Assembly: GCA_963753595.1 (NCBI GenBank)
Contig: CAVWCX010000037.1
Span: 18,089 to 82,088, forward strand
Source: Candidatus Methanoperedenaceae archaeon
GTDB taxonomy: Archaea > Halobacteriota > Methanosarcinia > Methanosarcinales > Methanoperedenaceae
Direction of reading: 5' to 3'
Length of the DNA: 64,000 bases
In this document: in pieces, positions 48,950-59,643 of the stretch
How the letters are laid out: the number at the start of each line of letters is the position of its first letter
Position numbering within the stretch: position 1 is the first letter of the stretch
The notes under the pieces: generated by a model
Told to the model about the DNA's origin: nothing
Database searches by the model: none
What the model saw: the letters and a program-made list of their open reading frames with translations, nothing else
Program-made: the position numbers and the translations under genes

Positions 48950-49325
48950 GAATATTTGTATTGCAATGAATACCTCAGTTGCACATCAACATCAGCCGTA
49001 CCCATAGTTGATTGAATAATAATTCCCTCACCCTTTCTCGCAGTCACTTTACGGCTGAAGGCTCTTACCAGCTTACTTTCAGTTATGAATTGAAAATCCC
49101 GTTTTTCAGGAAGTTGTCATACTGCTCCCTGCCTGACACCAGGTAAATATCAATATAATCAGTCGAGCTGATATCGATAGATACAGGCACATCAAAATCA
49201 AATGGATACGAAGGGTCGTATAAATACATGAATGTCAGGTATCCGTGATCCAATTTTATATTTTGGTCATGCTCAAGCCCCGCGAAAACCATTATTGCAT
49301 AACAGTTCTTCTTTTCACAATATAC
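48946..49325 (-). pseudogene. Degraded hypothetical gene whose 5' region is hit by the IS605-derived insert
   Basis: Coding-like frames ...DIYLVSGREQYDNFLKNG and ESKLVRAFSRKVTARKGEGIIIQ... separated by a frameshift near 49083. Confidence 0.4.
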
Positions 49326-49470
49326 TTTGCGCGGGGTCAAGGGGTAGAGATCAGGTATCTGCGATATTAATCGAGAAAAGCCCAATCAGTACGGTAGGAA
49401 CTATCGGAATTAACGCCCGTCAAGGATATCTCAGCGGAGTATTAATGCAGCGGGACGCTCCGCGGCTTTA

Positions 49471-51200
49471 GAGGCTGTCCGATAATTAACTGAAAAACTC
49501 TCCGATTTTTCCATAATTCCAAATTATAATCAAGCCCATTGCTTGCGAAATAATTTCAAAACATTTATATCATACAAATACAGTTTTTAAATAAATATGA
49601 CTTTCTATAAAGACCTCAAAGACCAGGAACTGCTCTTACCTCCAAACATTCGTGATATGATACCAAAAAATCACATCTGCCATCTGGTTGATAAAATAAT
49701 CCAGAATATGGATCTATCTGATATCGAAAAGGAATACGAAGGAGCAGGACACCCCGCATATCATCCAAAACTCATCCTCAAGCTTCTGATATTGGGTCAA
49801 ATAGATGGAGTACGTTCATCAAGGATAATAGCAAAAAATGCTAGAGAGAACGTGGTATACATTTACCTTGCAGGTCTTCTCCAACCTGATTTCAGGACGA
49901 TAAGCGACTTTCGGAAAAACAATCTTGAAATGGTCAAATCATCATTTCATGAAGTTGTAAAATTCGCAAAAGATCTTGGCATGGTATCTCTTGGTCACAT
50001 ATGCATTGATGGAACAAAAATAAAAGCCAATGCATCAAATCACAGTGCAGTAACAAAAGATGATTTTTTAAAATTGAAGGAACTCGTTGAAAGAGAACTG
50101 GAAGAAGGCATCAGAATAGACGAGGAAGAGGACAGGATCCATGGTGATAAGAATATCGATGAGCTGCCAGATAACATCTTTGACAAAACGATAGCGGAAA
50201 AATTGAAAGAGAAATATCAGTCAGGGAGCAAAGAACAAAAAGAAAAAATCAAGAAACAGGTTGATAAGATCGAAAAAGAAATCGAAAAATCAGAGAGTGC
50301 CATCAGTGCTACTGATCCTGAAAGCAGGTTCATGCCAAATAACAAGAAGGTCACTGAATATTCCTATAATCCTCAGATAACAGCGGATTCTTCTTTTGGG
50401 ATAATCATTTCCAACGATGTCACGTCAGAGGTAAGGGATGCAAATCAGCTTAAGCCTCAGATAATACAGGCAGAAGAGAATGTTGGAACCCTTCCGGAAG
50501 GTACGAAGGTGAGTGCTGATAATGGATATTCAAGCAGCAAGAATCTCAAATTCATGAAGAAAAAAAAGCTGGATGGCTATATCCCGGATGAAAAAACGGC
50601 ATCAAACCTGAACAAAAATGAAGGAAAACCAGAAAACCCATTCGGTAAAGAGAATTTCGATTATGACCCGATAGAAGATTGTTTCATTTGCCCCAATAAT
50701 CAGAAACTGACGTTCCGTTTTGAGTATGTGGATATTGCCAAAAACAGAAATGTGCGGATTTATAAAGGCACTCAGTGTAAGCAATGTCCTGATCGTAAAA
50801 AATGTTCAAAGAACTCTCGGGATGGAAAAGTGATCAAGAATTATGAGGGGATGGAAGAGGAAAGAAGGAAGATGGCTTCTAAATTGATGTCAAAAGAGGG
50901 AGCATTGACATATCAGACGAGGAAAAAGGTCGTGGAGTGCATCTTTGGTCATATCAAGAGGAATCTTGGGTTCAGGGAATTTCTGTTGAGAGGGATTAAT
51001 GGGGCGAAAATTGAGTTCAATCTTACCTGCATTGCTTCAAACCTGAGAAGAATGTGGAACTTTTTGAATGGATTTATTGAAGTAAGATGTTAAATTGGAG
51101 AAGAAGTATCGTTTTTTTTTGTTTGTCTGAAAAATTAGGCAATTATTGCTGAAACATTGCTTGAATAAACTGTATTTGATATCAAATGTCGGTCAACCTC
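49471..51200 (+). mobile_element. IS1182 family insertion sequence
   Basis: TIRs GAGGCTGTCCGATAATT / GAGGTTGACCGACATTT (13/17); CTTTA duplicated at 49466-49470 and 51201-51205. Confidence 0.9.
49597..51093 (+). CDS. IS1182 family transposase
   Basis: GHPAYHP, PDFRTISDFRK, IDGTKIKANAS, TDPESRFM, ADNGY, VECIFGHIK. Confidence 0.94.
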   Translation: MTFYKDLKDQELLLPPNIRDMIPKNHICHLVDKIIQNMDLSDIEKEYEGAGHPAYHPKLILKLLILGQIDGVRSSRIIAKNARENVVYIYLAGLLQPDFRTISDFRKNNLEMVKSSFHEVVKFAKDLGMVSLGHICIDGTKIKANASNHSAVTKDDFLKLKELVERELEEGIRIDEEEDRIHGDKNIDELPDNIFDKTIAEKLKEKYQSGSKEQKEKIKKQVDKIEKEIEKSESAISATDPESRFMPNNKKVTEYSYNPQITADSSFGIIISNDVTSEVRDANQLKPQIIQAEENVGTLPEGTKVSADNGYSSSKNLKFMKKKKLDGYIPDEKTASNLNKNEGKPENPFGKENFDYDPIEDCFICPNNQKLTFRFEYVDIAKNRNVRIYKGTQCKQCPDRKKCSKNSRDGKVIKNYEGMEEERRKMASKLMSKEGALTYQTRKKVVECIFGHIKRNLGFREFLLRGINGAKIEFNLTCIASNLRRMWNFLNGFIEVRC

Positions 51201-51259
51201 CTTTAGCCCGAAGCAGTTCACAAACGCATATCTATTTTGGTGATATTTATGTCTTGAAG

Positions 51260-56602: not shown

Positions 56603-57841
56603 TTAAATGTATATTATTTCTTTATTGGCAGGAGCAAATGATTTCACACCAAGTTCTTCATTGACCCAATGTGCGAATCCTTCAGTATTATCACCATGTA
56701 CCGCGATAACGGTTTCCGTACCCCTGTCGCAGAAGGTCTTTACAACCTCTTTTAATTGCGCATCCCCGCAATGTGCTGAAAAATCATAGAGCTCAAGCCT
56801 GCAATTAAGCCTCACCGTGCGTTTCCCATTTTCTATGTACCTTCTTTCAAGCGCTCTTCTGCCATTTGTGTCTTCTGCCTGGTAACCGGTAAGATGGATC
56901 TTGGATTTGGGATCGTTGCAAATCTCATCGATATAATATAAAACCGGTCCTCCGTTTAACATTCCAGCACTTGTCACGATTATAGAGGGTTCATTTATTA
57001 TTTCTTCCCTGTCATCCCGTTTTACGATATTTTCACTCGTGAATGCATTTTCAAGTTTCTTTATATCGGATACATATTCAGGCGACCGTTTCATTATGTT
57101 AAAGACATCGACTCCCATACCATCAACATATGCGCGAAGTTCGTGTTTTTTGAGTATCAGCATGATCTCCTGCGTTCTTCCTATGCCAAATGCCGGGATT
57201 ATTGCCCGCCCTCCGCTTTCAATTGTTTCCCTTATAGATGTGATGAACCGTTCCTCCAGGATTTTCCTGGGAGTGTGGTCCCTCCCGAAATATGTACTTT
57301 CAGTAAGAAGAATATCGCTATCAGGAAAATCTGTATCTGCGCCTTTCTGGAGTTCTGTCCTGATCGTGTTCAAATCCCCTGTATAAAACAGCGTCTGTTT
57401 ATCCTTTTCAAGATGCACCATCGAAGAACCGGGGATATGTCCTGCATCGTAAAAACATACAGAATATCCATTGCTATTGAATTCTTTCCCATATCCTATC
57501 GGCCTGGCCTTTCGTTCAAATTCCTGGATCTCTTCATGATAGTAAGGAATAACATGACCTTTTTTTGCCGCGATCTTCAGGGTATCCCTTGCCAGGAGCC
57601 CTGATAATTTTGCAGTCAGGGATGTGCAATATACCTCAGGTTCAAGGTCCATGATATTCGGGGCAAGCCCGCAATGGTCAAGATGCCCATGGGAAATTAT
57701 CATGGTTTTAGGACGAAGGCCATTTGAAGGATATGAGGGCGGATCTGTAGGTTTAATCCCGTAATCAAGAAGAAGCTCTTCATTTACAAGAATAGCAGAT
57801 CTTCCAACTTCTTTTGCCCCTCCAAGGAATCGTATGTTTAT
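56603..57841 (-). CDS. Beta-CASP ribonuclease (aCPSF2-type MBL hydrolase)
   Basis: FLGGAKEVGRS, SHGHLDHCG, AGHIPGS, TESTY, FGIGRTQE, FSAH; N-terminus extends to ATA 57841. Confidence 0.9.
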   Translation of the reverse strand: MNIRFLGGAKEVGRSAILVNEELLLDYGIKPTDPPSYPSNGLRPKTMIISHGHLDHCGLAPNIMDLEPEVYCTSLTAKLSGLLARDTLKIAAKKGHVIPYYHEEIQEFERKARPIGYGKEFNSNGYSVCFYDAGHIPGSSMVHLEKDKQTLFYTGDLNTIRTELQKGADTDFPDSDILLTESTYFGRDHTPRKILEERFITSIRETIESGGRAIIPAFGIGRTQEIMLILKKHELRAYVDGMGVDVFNIMKRSPEYVSDIKKLENAFTSENIVKRDDREEIINEPSIIVTSAGMLNGGPVLYYIDEICNDPKSKIHLTGYQAEDTNGRRALERRYIENGKRTVRLNCRLELYDFSAHCGDAQLKEVVKTFCDRGTETVIAVHGDNTEGFAHWVNEELGVKSFAPANKEIIYI

Positions 57842-57891
57842 GTTATCGCCTCAAGTCTATTTCGTAGATATTATTCTTGTTCTTTTAATAC

Positions 57892-59202
57892 TTTGCGCGG
57901 GGTCAAGGGGTAGAGATCGCCCAATGCCTTTAGGCTTGGGATGAAATGTACCCTCTGGAATAGATTACTTTCACCCCACTCTATCATAAGCGATATATAA
58001 TCTAAAAATAATGTCGATGCTGCATGAAAAAGACGTATCAATTCAGAATATACCCTAACAAGAATCATGAGGTTATTTTGAATAGAACGCTTGGAACTTG
58101 CAGGTATCTCTATAATAATGCTCTTGCAGAACGAAAGAAGCAAGCAGAGCTTAATCGGCTTAGAAAATCATTTGATGTATTCCCGTGGGGAAAACCTGAA
58201 TGGATCAACAAATACGATCAAATGCTTGATTTAACAGCTACAAAAACAGAATATCAAAAAGAAGTATATGGTCAAGTGCTTCAAGATGTTTTAAAAAGAG
58301 TGGATCGCAGTTTCAAGAATTTCTTTAATGGGTTCGGCTATCCCCGGTTTCAAGGAAGAAATAGATACAATAGTTTCACGTATCCCCAATCAGGTTTTTC
58401 AATCAAAGACGGAAAGCTTAACCTTTCAAAAATCGGAGCTATCAAGATCATCCTGCATAGACCGATTGAAGGCATAATCAAGACCTGTACCATCAAAAAG
58501 GATATTGACCAGTGGTATGTTACTTTTTCATGTGAAATCGAAGAGCCTATCCCGGTTGAGATCAAGACCAAAACAGGTATTGACGTGGGCTTAATCGACC
58601 TGATAACCCTGAGCAACGGGGAACAGGTCAAACCGCCAAAATTCCTGCGAGAATCAGAGAATAAGCTGACACAGGAACAGAAGCGGTTAAGCCGGAAAAA
58701 ACTCAGGTCAAAGAACAGGAATAAGCAGCGGGTGATAGTATCCAAAGCTCATCGAAAGATCAGGAATCAGAGAAAAGATTTTGCTCATAAACTGTCAAGA
58801 ACTCTTGTGGACTCCTATGACCGTATCGTGTTTGAAGATTTGCAGATAAAAAACATGGTGCAAAACCATCATTTTGCTAAATCCATAAACGATGCTGGAT
58901 GGTATCAGTTAATGCAATTCACGAAATCCAAGGCAGAATGTGCCGGGAAAATAGTTGAATTCGTTAATCCCGCAGGAACATCTCAGACCTGTATTTGCGG
59001 GTTCAGTGTCCCGAGAGACCTGTCAGTGAGGATACATAGTTGTCCTTCCTGTGGTCTTGTCATGGGAAGAGATCAGGTATCTGCAATATTAATCGAGAAT
59101 AGATGTACGGTAGGAACTACCGGAATTAACGCCCGTCAAGGATATCTCAGCGGAGTATCAATGCAGCGGGACGCTTTGCGGCTTTAACCCGGAGCAGTTC
59201 AC
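57892..59202 (+). mobile_element. IS200/IS605 family (IS1341-type, TnpB only) element
   Basis: LE hairpin CCCAA-T-GCC-TTTA-GGC-TTGGG (57920-57940), RE hairpin 59174-59194, terminal TCAC, no tnpA. Confidence 0.9.
58024..59187 (+). CDS. tnpB: RNA-guided endonuclease TnpB
   Basis: TYQFRIYP HTH, GYPRF, RuvC GIDVG / VFEDL / RDQVSA, Zn ribbon CICG..CPSCG. Confidence 0.95.
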   Translation: MKKTYQFRIYPNKNHEVILNRTLGTCRYLYNNALAERKKQAELNRLRKSFDVFPWGKPEWINKYDQMLDLTATKTEYQKEVYGQVLQDVLKRVDRSFKNFFNGFGYPRFQGRNRYNSFTYPQSGFSIKDGKLNLSKIGAIKIILHRPIEGIIKTCTIKKDIDQWYVTFSCEIEEPIPVEIKTKTGIDVGLIDLITLSNGEQVKPPKFLRESENKLTQEQKRLSRKKLRSKNRNKQRVIVSKAHRKIRNQRKDFAHKLSRTLVDSYDRIVFEDLQIKNMVQNHHFAKSINDAGWYQLMQFTKSKAECAGKIVEFVNPAGTSQTCICGFSVPRDLSVRIHSCPSCGLVMGRDQVSAILIENRCTVGTTGINARQGYLSGVSMQRDALRL

Positions 59203-59643
59203 TTTCCCGTGATTATCTATCTCCCCATTCCTTATACGGGTGCTGGATATCGGTAAACCATCATCGGCAAGAACATACTCAACAAGGACGATCTTTAACG
59301 GTTCCATGTTTTTTTCAGTGCGTATCCTGTTTATCTTAAGTCCGATAGGATGCGTTTCAGGAGATACTACAAGAAAATCAAAATCCTCATTTATGGTCGG
59401 GCCATAGGGGTCTTCAAGCTTTACGATCCTGGGGATAACGCTATTGTCATTGATAAATTTCATTACTTCATTATAGCGAGATCGATAATCATTGACTTCA
59501 TGGTTCTTGTTTTTCGCCATTTTATCTGATGTCAGCCCTATCAACAGTTCTCCATCCCTTCCCAGTTCAACGGCTTTTATCAAGAGTGCCTTATGCCCGT
59601 CATGCAAGGGGTCAAAAGTTCCTCCAACTGCTACTCGCGGCAT
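59158..59643 (-). CDS. coaD: Phosphopantetheine adenylyltransferase (C-terminus replaced by IS sequence)
   Basis: VGGTFDPLHDGH, DPYGP, VVSPET, ISSTRI..GEID. Confidence 0.92.
   Translation of the reverse strand: MPRVAVGGTFDPLHDGHKALLIKAVELGRDGELLIGLTSDKMAKNKNHEVNDYRSRYNEVMKFINDNSVIPRIVKLEDPYGPTINEDFDFLVVSPETHPIGLKINRIRTEKNMEPLKIVLVEYVLADDGLPISSTRIRNGEIDNHGKVNCSGLKPQSVPLH

What the first reader, a model, noticed from the sequence alone, without database searches (positions are those of the whole stretch)
57888..57940. Predicted TAM 5'-ATAC supported by two insertions and by the end-guide pairing rule
Seen: both copies are preceded by ATAC (57888-57891, 49322-49325) and end in TCAC. The tetranucleotides 5' of the hairpins are ATCG (left, 57916-57919) and GACG (right, 59170-59173). 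Established for IS608: guides AAAG and GAAT specify cleavage sites TTAC and TCAA through 1-2, 2-1 and 4-4 pairings. The same rule gives ATnC for ATCG and TCnC for GACG, matching what is seen. Inference: this 387-aa TnpB probably recognises (W)ATAC, unlike the familiar TTGAT or TTAC motifs.
Basis: partly seen in the sequence, partly recalled or inferred. Interest (0 to 1): 0.7.

Follow-up and report, generated by a model that had tools for sequence, protein, structure and literature searches.

The report
Archaeal TnpB transposon targeting ATAC
A small transposon carrying only the RNA-guided nuclease TnpB sits precisely after the four bases ATAC in a methane-oxidising archaeon; its ends follow the known pairing rule for this transposon family, so it is a well-behaved new member, not a new kind of system.

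Summary
Window 57892-59202 is a 1,311-nt tnpB-only IS200/IS605 (IS1341-like) element in a Candidatus Methanoperedens genome. A congener has the exact empty site (...ATAC|TTTCCCGTG...), so the element lies 3' of ATAC, ends in TCAC and makes no duplication. Eight independent insertions with this type of left end all follow ATAC.

The IS608 pairing rule holds across the family. Guide ATCG goes with ATAC, AACG with TTAC, AACC/AATC with TTAG, AACA/AAAA/AATA/AAGA with TTAT and AAGT with TTnA. That is 35 of 40 independent left ends, against a maximum of 34 in 5,000 class permutations. At the right end the rule is only partly kept: seven loci have guide TACG but still end in TCAC.

The "W" at -5 is not supported (A1, T4, C3). 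That TnpB itself reads ATAC remains inference. New support is that TnpB residue 83, aligned with ISDra2 TAM-reading K76, is the only column separating ATAC from TTAN elements, and residue 67 tracks the -1 base.

No intact tnpA was found in this genome; a congener has a tnpA element with the same ends. Covariation of TAM and DNA guide is already published (Meers 2023 preprint), so this is a new member of a known kind.

The parts
57888..57891 (+). ATAC: left cleavage/target tetranucleotide of TnpA and predicted TAM of TnpB
   Evidence: The empty site in congener G008 joins ATAC directly to the right flank. 8 independent insertions of this left-end type follow ATAC.
57892..59202 (+). tnpB-only IS200/IS605 (IS1341-like) element, 1,311 nt
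   Evidence: Boundaries come from the empty site and from the points where copies diverge.
57916..57919 (+). left DNA guide ATCG
   Evidence: It lies immediately 5' of the hairpin foot and covaries with the flank across the family.
57920..57940 (+). left subterminal imperfect hairpin (5 bp, bulged T, 3 bp, loop TTTA)
   Evidence: It is the minimum-energy DNA fold. Relatives keep a hairpin here with different sequences.
58024..59187 (+). tnpB, 387 aa, open
   Evidence: Pfam OrfB_IS605, Cas12f1-like_TNB and HTH_OrfB_IS605. NCBIfam guided_TnpB, 313 bits. E 1.9e-50 to ISDra2 TnpB structures. D187, E271 and D350 are invariant in the family.
59003..59202 (+). 3' part of the predicted omega-RNA scaffold, overlapping the end of tnpB and the right end
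   Evidence: The consensus fold of 29 family members has 19 pairs, 13 of them with compensatory changes. There is no Rfam match.
59170..59173 (+). right DNA guide GACG
   Evidence: It lies 5' of the right hairpin foot.
59174..59194 (+). right subterminal hairpin, degraded in this copy (CTTTG C GGC TTTA ACC CGGAG)
   Evidence: It is not the predicted DNA fold here, whereas relative L018 folds at -9.6 kcal/mol with z -2. As RNA it still forms, at -12.2 kcal/mol.
59199..59202 (+). TCAC: right cleavage tetranucleotide (transposon-encoded motif), last bases of the element
   Evidence: All 38 right ends collected end in TCAC and their flanks differ afterwards.
59203..59222 (+). right flank that would serve as the omega-RNA guide; it matches the empty allele next to ATAC
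   Evidence: The G008 empty site reads ATAC followed by the same 21 bases. The guide role is inferred from the TnpB mechanism.
49322..49325 (+). ATAC before the second, deleted copy
49326..49470 (+). deletion derivative: 27 nt of left end fused to the last ~118 nt of tnpB/right end at an AGAGATC microhomology; no left hairpin
   Evidence: Direct repeats D1, D3 and D4.
49471..51200 (+). nested IS1182-family element (498-aa transposase at 49597-51093) inserted in the TTTA loop of the right hairpin, with 5-bp duplication CTTTA
51201..51221 (+). right tail of the deleted copy, ending in TTCAC
   Evidence: Direct repeat D9; alignment.

Best explanation
Window 57892-59202 is a non-autonomous, tnpB-only member of the IS200/IS605 family (IS1341-like) in a Candidatus Methanoperedens genome. 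A Y1 (HUH) TnpA supplied in trans moved it as single-stranded DNA. TnpA binds the subterminal hairpins. The tetranucleotide 5' of each hairpin foot pairs with the cleavage site: ATCG with ATAC at the left and GACG with TCAC at the right. The element therefore inserts 3' of ATAC without duplication and leaves ATAC joined to the right flank when it excises.

The TnpB-omega-RNA complex uses the right flank as its guide. It is expected to cut that donor joint or empty allele next to ATAC, which makes ATAC the most likely TAM. In this genome the family appears stranded and decaying, but the window copy keeps an open tnpB and an RNA-level scaffold.

Shown here: the boundaries, the target tetramer, the guide/target covariation, the TnpB family membership and the conserved RNA structure. 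Inferred: TnpA action, and TAM recognition and cleavage by TnpB.
For: Boundaries and target:
- A congener has the exact empty site, ATAC|TTTCCCGTGATTATC.
- There are 8 independent ATAC flanks.
- 38 of 38 right ends finish in TCAC.

Pairing rule:
- The rule is confirmed in passages of PMC3201880.
- 35 of 40 independent left ends carry the tetramer predicted from their own guide. Permuted guides give a mean of 16.2 and a maximum of 27; class-block permutation gives a maximum of 34; 0 of 5,000 permutations reach 35 in either test.
- A guide class seen only in the metagenome set, AATC, also goes with TTAG.

TnpB and its RNA:
- TnpB family hits are strong and the protein aligns along its length with ISDra2 TnpB.
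- The omega-RNA-like fold has 13 of 19 pairs with compensatory changes.

Transposase:
- A tnpA-only element with the same left anchor, guide, hairpin and ...TTCAC right end exists in a congener (L097).

TAM link:
- Residue 83 aligns with ISDra2 K76, a TAM contact (PMC10097598 passages). It is the only column of the TnpB alignment with disjoint residues between ATAC elements (G or T) and TTAN elements (S).
- Residue 67 tracks the -1 base: M/Q with C, K with G, A with T. In new metagenome loci A67 went with TTAT in 17 of 17 and K67 with TTAG in 3 of 4.
- The identity of TAM and TnpA target, and a donor joint of TAM plus right flank, are stated in passages of the Meers 2023 preprint.
Against: - No TAM assay exists, so TnpB specificity is inferred.
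- Five of 40 left ends miss the rule: own C20, own C27, L024, L046 and L057. One of four new K67 loci has TTAA.
- At the right end, 7 loci have guide TACG but keep TCAC, so the 2-1 pairing is not kept there.
- The window copy's right hairpin is not predicted to form as DNA, and its left hairpin is no more stable than shuffles (z 0.01). This copy may no longer be excisable.
- Only 3 partial Y1 hits were found in this 92%-complete assembly, none near family ends.
- Residue/TAM covariation could partly reflect linkage, because codons 67 and 83 lie about 330-380 nt from the left end. The classes are interleaved on the TnpB tree, which needs either repeated switches or recombination.
- The AlphaFold model is unreliable over residues 51-113, so no contact geometry could be checked.
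- A published TTAC-type TnpB tolerates ATAC, so TAM readout at -4 can be loose.
Confidence: 0.75

Rival explanations
1. ATAC is only the TnpA target. TnpB in this family reads a looser or different motif (for example TTAC-preferring with ATAC tolerated, or essentially NTAN), so the predicted TAM is wrong or too narrow.
For: TnpA targeting can change by a single base in the DNA guide, whereas TnpB needs protein changes. The target classes are interleaved on the TnpB tree (9 changes). The residues aligned with ISDra2 -1 contacts (W55, E59) do not vary between classes. SfaTnpB uses TTAC optimally and ATAC suboptimally (PMC12781874 passages).
Against: Residue 83, aligned with a TAM contact, is the single column separating ATAC from TTAN elements. 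Residue 67 tracks the -1 base, including Lys with G. In L057 the TnpB residue type agrees with the flank (TTAC) and not with the mutated guide.
Confidence: 0.2
2. The window copy is an inert relic. With no TnpA in the genome and a degraded right hairpin it neither moves nor homes, and ATAC is only a historical footprint.
For: Only partial Y1 genes are present. The right hairpin is not predicted as DNA. Sibling copies are deleted or interrupted by IS1182, which sits in 4 right ends. RNA-library contigs that could be laid belonged to a related strain's copy, not to this locus.
Against: tnpB is open with catalytic residues conserved. The three right-hairpin substitutions keep RNA pairing through G-U pairs, which is consistent with selection on the omega-RNA. 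The assembly is 92% complete, and extrachromosomal elements could supply TnpA.
Confidence: 0.3
3. The match between guides and flanks is coincidence in AT-rich DNA.
For: Flanks are AT-rich, TTAT is common, and the window's left hairpin is not more stable than shuffles.
Against: 0 of 5,000 permutations reach the observed 35 of 40. All four letters at guide position 4 occur, each with its complement. The empty site fixes the boundary.
Confidence: 0.01

Closest known systems
IS608 (Helicobacter pylori), IS200/IS605 family
   Same: Single-strand 'peel and paste' architecture. Subterminal imperfect hairpins with a bulged T. Tetranucleotide guides 5' of the hairpin feet that pair 1-2, 2-1 and 4-4 with the cleavage sites. 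Insertion 3' of a tetranucleotide without duplication (PMC3201880 passages).
   Different: There is no tnpA in the element. The target is ATAC, not TTAC, and the right end is TCAC, not TCAA. The left cleavage site lies 28 nt from the hairpin foot. The host is an archaeon.
ISDra2 TnpB / omega-RNA (Deinococcus radiodurans)
   Same: RNA-guided nuclease of the same family, aligned over residues 3-378 at E 1.9e-50. The omega-RNA overlaps the tnpB 3' end and the right end. The TAM equals the TnpA target.
   Different: ISDra2 has a 5-nt TAM, TTGAT. The TAM-contact residues differ (K76->G83, F77->Q84, T123->P121, N124->Q122, Y52->W55, S56->E59). There is a CxC in place of the first CxxC of the zinc finger, conserved in the family.
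ISGst1-5 of Geobacillus stearothermophilus (Meers et al. 2023 preprint, 10.1101/2023.03.14.532601)
   Same: Families of tnpB-only and tnpA-bearing elements share ends. TAM/TEM motifs are clade-specific and covary with the DNA guides. The donor joint is the TAM abutting the right flank (passages).
   Different: This family is archaeal. Here the covariation is seen inside one closely related TnpB family (60-95% identity) and extends to two TnpB residues. Nothing here is tested experimentally.
SfaTnpB (PMC12781874)
   Same: It uses a 4-nt TAM of the TTAC type and accepts ATAC (passages).
   Different: ATAC is suboptimal there. Here ATAC is the native target of the subfamily. Sequence relatedness was not examined.

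Membership tests
IS200/IS605 family (tnpB-only, IS1341-like group) | Insertion 3' of a specific tetra/pentanucleotide with no target duplication and no terminal inverted repeats | tested here: met
   The empty site in congener G008 is ATAC joined directly to the right flank. The ends are TTTGCG... and ...GTTCAC.
IS200/IS605 family (tnpB-only, IS1341-like group) | Subterminal imperfect hairpins at both ends on the same strand | tested here: inconclusive
   The left hairpin is present. The right hairpin is conserved with compensatory changes across the family, but in the window copy it is degraded and not predicted as DNA.
IS200/IS605 family (tnpB-only, IS1341-like group) | Guide tetranucleotide 5' of each hairpin foot complementary to the cleavage site (1-2, 2-1, 4-4) | tested here: met
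   Window: ATCG/ATAC and GACG/TCAC. Family: 35 of 40 left ends. Exception: 7 right ends with TACG keep TCAC.
IS200/IS605 family (tnpB-only, IS1341-like group) | Y1 HUH transposase TnpA, in the element or in trans | tested here: inconclusive
   None is in the element. The own genome has 3 partial PF01797 hits only. A tnpA element with homologous ends is in congener locus L097. 35 of 41 genomes of the genus have Y1 hits.
TnpB RNA-guided endonuclease | OrfB_IS605 / RuvC fold with a D-E-D triad and a zinc-ribbon TNB domain | tested here: met
   Pfam, NCBIfam NF040570 at 313 bits, PDB ISDra2 TnpB at E 1.9e-50. D187, E271, D350 and C323/C325/C340/C343 are invariant in 16 relatives. Their identification as the catalytic triad rests on the alignment plus recalled ISDra2 residue numbers.
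TnpB RNA-guided endonuclease | omega-RNA encoded at the tnpB 3' end and right end, ending at the transposon boundary | tested here: met
   Conserved fold with 13 of 19 covarying pairs, ending at TTCAC. Expression at this locus is not shown. There is no Rfam family match.
TnpB RNA-guided endonuclease | TAM-dependent, guide-dependent dsDNA cleavage | not testable with these tools
   Only indirect evidence: residues 83 and 67 covary with the flank.

The most novel reading that the evidence does not exclude
This Methanoperedens family is a natural TAM-switch series. Single-base changes in the TnpA DNA guide retarget the transposon among ATAC, TTAC, TTAG, TTAT and TTnA. TnpB follows through two REC-domain residues: residue 83 (Ser/Ala with T, Gly/Thr with A at -4) and residue 67 (Met/Gln with C, Lys with G, Ala with T at -1). 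That would give a simple, transferable code for re-engineering TnpB TAM specificity. A corollary is that right-guide position 1 also serves as an omega-RNA stem base, and in the TACG subfamily the RNA pairing was preserved at the expense of the TnpA pairing.
Probability: 0.35. Interest if true: 0.6.

Novelty: new member of a known kind. Interest (0 to 1): 0.4.

Why it matters
The finding gives a precise and cheaply testable TAM prediction (ATAC) for a compact 387-aa archaeal TnpB. It also provides a set of close relatives with native targets TTAC, TTAG and TTAT.

If residues 67 and 83 set TAM specificity, a few point mutations could widen the targeting range of miniature TnpB editors. The family would also show how a transposase's DNA guide and a nuclease's protein readout stay matched during target switching.

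The pairing rule, the identity of TAM and TnpA target, and guide/TAM covariation are all already established, so as it stands the finding is confirmatory.

Tried and rejected
Rfam search of 57700-59500 at E<=1 gave no match, so the omega-RNA could not be assigned to a curated family.

Sequencing runs: no run held half of the sampled words. The RNA-library contigs that laid on the stretch (X17, X16) carry the flank and the 12-nt insertion of the related copy L018. They therefore show nothing about expression or excision at this locus. X15 laid nothing. All runs were contigs, which cannot show RNA ends.

The AlphaFold2 model from a 16-sequence alignment had mean pLDDT 66.9, with below 50 over residues 51-113, which is exactly the REC region of interest. 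I did not run fold search and I draw no contact geometry from it.

The codon-level script for residues 67 and 83 mostly failed on its pattern matching. One search returned nothing and one search returned only 3 relatives (Ser83 TCT against the window's Gly83 GGT). No conclusion is drawn from it.

The first regular expression for right ends found nothing because of a typing slip; it was corrected.

I considered whether the Y1 fragments in the own genome are the cognate transposase and rejected it. They are at most 38% identical to the L097 TnpA, are partial or interrupted by stops, and have no family ends nearby.

I considered whether the boundary could be shifted by up to 3 nt, because both the element's start and the right flank begin with TTT. 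I rejected this because all 38 right ends stop at TCAC with unrelated bases after it.

Rows dropped:
- The left-end table kept only anchors followed by the family's post-hairpin box. This dropped L022 (palindromic rearrangement), L058 (truncated; same site as L080) and the two hairpin-less own copies C37b and C24.
- The N-terminal protein table dropped 7 rows with stops or without the motif (listed). The tree used the 22 ORFs of 340 aa or more.
- Of 80 metagenome loci, only 25 had a left anchor with at least 22 nt of flank. One of these duplicates L029 and three have poor anchors (L158, L166, L185).

Supplementary files of the papers were not available. The supplements of Meers 2023 and of TnpB-mining papers may list TAMs, possibly including ATAC-type ones. 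Searches for an ATAC TAM in print were only. The single hit was PMC12781874.
Full report
WHAT IS THERE. Window 57892-59202 holds one open gene, 58024-59187 on the + strand, 387 aa. Its product matches Pfam OrfB_IS605, Cas12f1-like_TNB and HTH_OrfB_IS605 and NCBIfam guided_TnpB at 313 bits. It aligns over residues 3-378 with the solved ISDra2 TnpB at E 1.9e-50. Record titles of the closest relatives place the genome in Candidatus Methanoperedens.

- ATAC at 57888-57891 and at 49322-49325.
- ATCG at 57916-57919, in front of the hairpin 57920-57940.
- GACG at 59170-59173.
- TCAC at 59199-59202 and at 51218-51221.

BOUNDARIES. A genome of the same genus (G008) carries the uninterrupted site. Its sequence reads ...TTAATAC followed directly by TTTCCCGTGATTATCTATCTC, which is the window's left flank up to ATAC joined to the window's right flank from 59203. 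The element is therefore 57892-59202, lies 3' of ATAC and made no target duplication. The element's start and the right flank both begin with TTT, which leaves a 3-nt ambiguity. This is removed by 38 right ends from relatives, which all stop at TCAC and then diverge.

COPIES IN THE SAME GENOME.
- Window copy: the only copy found with its left flank in view, an open tnpB and an uninterrupted right end.
- C15: a 386-aa ORF and an intact right end, but its left end runs off the contig.
- C7, C10 and C36: open tnpB, but an IS1182 element sits in the right hairpin.
- C30: internal deletion.
- Window 49326-51221: the first 27 nt of the left end fused at an AGAGATC microhomology to the last ~118 nt, then split by IS1182.
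- C24: a remnant.
- C20 and C27: left-end remnants.
- C26: a 70%-identical relative.

The three copies with the window's type of left end (C37a, C37b, C24) lie in different flanks and all follow ATAC.

THE PAIRING RULE. Passages of He et al. 2011 (PMC3201880) state that in IS608 the cleavage sites are read by the tetranucleotides 5' of the hairpin feet. At the right end T-4 pairs with A-34 and C-3 with G-35. Applied here, ATCG predicts ATnC and GACG predicts TCnC, and both are observed.

FAMILY-WIDE TEST. I fetched 64 loci from reference genomes and 30 Y1 loci from the genus, and added the own genome. I located left ends by a conserved 15-nt anchor and read the four bases after it as the guide.

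Forty left ends in distinct flanks passed the family filter. Thirty-five have the tetramer predicted from their own guide 5-9 nt upstream of the anchor:

| Guide | Flank tetramer | Left ends with it |
|---|---|---|
| ATCG | ATAC | 6 of 6 |
| AACG | TTAC | 4 of 4 |
| AACC | TTAG | 6 of 7 |
| AACA | TTAT | 5 of 5 |
| AAAA | TTAT | 8 of 9 |
| AATA | TTAT | 3 of 3 |
| AAGA | TTAT | 1 of 1 |
| AAGT | TTCA or TTAA | 2 of 2 |

Permuting guides among the ends gives a mean of 16.2 and a maximum of 27. Permuting whole guide classes gives a mean of 14.2 and a maximum of 34. In both tests 0 of 5,000 permutations reach 35.

The misses are:
- own C20 (TAAT);
- own C27 (guide AGCC, flank CTAC);
- L024 and L046 (unclear hairpins);
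- L057 (guide AACC, flank TTAC).

That is literally met, but the differences are exactly the ones the rule predicts.

In metagenome loci fetched afterwards, a further guide class, AATC, also goes with TTAG.

RIGHT END. Right guides GACG, GAAG and GATG all predict TCnC and go with TCAC. Seven loci (L021, L022, L051, L052, L065, L067, L068) have TACG, which predicts TAnC, yet keep TCAC. The 2-1 pairing is therefore not universally kept at the right end.

In the RNA consensus fold, this guide position pairs with a base about 90 columns upstream. That pair is C-G in 26 sequences and A-U in the 3 TACG sequences included. The change was therefore compensated at the RNA level and not at the TnpA level.

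STATE OF THE WINDOW COPY. As single-stranded DNA the left hairpin is the minimum-energy fold, at -5.9 kcal/mol, but this is no better than shuffles. The right hairpin is not predicted at all, whereas the 94%-identical relative L018 folds it at -9.6 kcal/mol with z -2. The three substitutions responsible (two C to T, one G to A) leave G-U pairs, and as RNA the stem still forms (-12.2 against -20.2 kcal/mol in L018). A 29-sequence alignment of the last 200 nt gives 19 consensus pairs, 13 with compensatory changes. This is consistent with an omega-RNA scaffold that ends at the transposon boundary.

TRANSPOSASE. The own genome (92% complete) has only three partial Y1 matches. None is next to family ends, and none is more than 38% identical to the candidate below.

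In the genus, 35 of 41 genomes have Y1 hits. Of the 30 loci fetched, one (L097) is an IS200-type element with three matching features:
- the same left anchor, with guide AATA after a TTAT flank;
- a 198-aa IS200/IS605 transposase (NF033573);
- a right end with GATG, a hairpin and TAATTCAC.

This is the likely kind of helper. L094 has a related left end (guide AAGT, flank TTAA) with tnpA and a different 423-aa tnpB.

DOES TnpB READ ATAC? This is the inferential step. Passages of the Meers et al. 2023 preprint state that the TAM is the TnpA target and that the donor joint is the TAM abutting the right flank. Nakagawa et al. 2023 (PMC10097598, passages) list the ISDra2 TAM contacts as Y52, S56, K76, F77, Q80, T123 and N124. 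By the alignment these correspond here to W55, E59, G83, Q84, Q87, P121 and Q122.

Across family members with mapped flanks, exactly one column of the TnpB alignment has disjoint residue sets between ATAC and TTAN elements. It is residue 83: G in 5 and T in 1 of the ATAC elements, and S in 18 of the TTAN elements (N-terminal set). The same result holds in the 20-row full-length set. In new metagenome loci, residue 83 is S or A with T at -4.

Residue 67 tracks the -1 base:
- M or Q with C, in 11 of 11 ATAC or TTAC elements;
- K with G, in 4 of 4 informative elements;
- A with T, in 10 of 11, the exception being a degraded ORF;
- Q with A, in the single TTCA element.

In the new loci, A67 goes with TTAT in 17 of 17 and K67 with TTAG in 3 of 4, L171 having TTAA. 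No new C-type or ATAC-type loci with flanks were recovered, so those classes lack an out-of-sample test.

L057, the left end that breaks the guide rule, has the M67 type that fits its TTAC flank. It is nearly identical in this region to the AACG/TTAC element L028 (6 differences in 135 aa). This suggests a recent change in its guide.

CAVEATS.
- The target classes are interleaved on the TnpB tree (9 changes where 6 is the minimum, few well-supported branches). This means either repeated switching or recombination.
- Codons 67 and 83 are close to the left end, so linkage could contribute to the association.
- The structure model is unreliable in this region.

COMPARISON WITH WHAT IS KNOWN.
- The architecture and mechanism are those of IS608 and ISDra2.
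- Covariation between TAM/TEM and DNA guides among related elements was already reported for ISGst1-5.
- ATAC is reported as a usable but suboptimal TAM of a TTAC-type TnpB (PMC12781874).
- A preprint on Methanoperedens elements mentions abundant TnpB genes; the word TAM does not occur in its main text.
- My two searches for an ATAC TAM found nothing else. Supplements were not available.

VERDICT. The '(W)' is not supported (A1, T4, C3 at -5). The TAM assignment to TnpB is probable but untested. This is a new member of a known kind. Its useful extension is a candidate two-residue TAM code that can be tested with a few constructs.

Noticed in passing
window 49471-51200; own genome C7, C10, C36, C1, C34, C35: An IS1182-family element (498-aa transposase, NF033551) has 11 copies with identical ends. 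Four sit at the same place in the TTTA loop of the TnpB elements' right hairpin, with 5-bp duplication CTTTA and one in the opposite orientation. At least two others lie in loops of unrelated GC-rich hairpins, and one abuts a Y1 tnpA fragment. It looks like a hairpin-loop-targeting IS that disables IS200/IS605 right ends and cuts the omega-RNA scaffold from its guide.
   Followed up: partly
alignment A1 columns 143/233 (window about 59125 and 59170): Position 1 of the right DNA guide is also one side of a long-range omega-RNA pair. In the TACG subfamily the G-to-U change is compensated in the RNA partner (C-G in 26, A-U in 3) while the TnpA guide/cleavage pairing is left mismatched.
   Followed up: partly
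window 59158-59643 (- strand): The element lies in the 3' end of a cytidylyltransferase-like gene (Pfam CTP_transf_like), so the present ORF ends in element-derived codons. The congener's empty site has the undisrupted end.
   Followed up: partly
L083:1950-2870 (congener G002): At the same intergenic position where the window has the TnpB element, another congener has a different ~900-nt insert with two small ORFs, which were not analysed.
   Followed up: no
L026 (record titled Candidatus Ratteibacteria): A 77%-identical ATAC-class copy with guide ATCG sits on a contig binned to a bacterial candidate phylum. This is either a binning error or a transfer between domains.
   Followed up: no
left flanks of TTAT-class elements: The base at -5 is T in 15 of 17 new TTAT-class insertions, which suggests a 5-nt TTTAT target for that class. 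The ATAC class shows no -5 preference (A1, T4, C3).
   Followed up: partly
window 58984-58998 (TnpB residues 321-325): The first half of the TnpB zinc ribbon is C-x-C (QTCICG) where ISDra2 has C-x-x-C. It is invariant in 16 family members, so it is a family trait and not a lesion.
   Followed up: no
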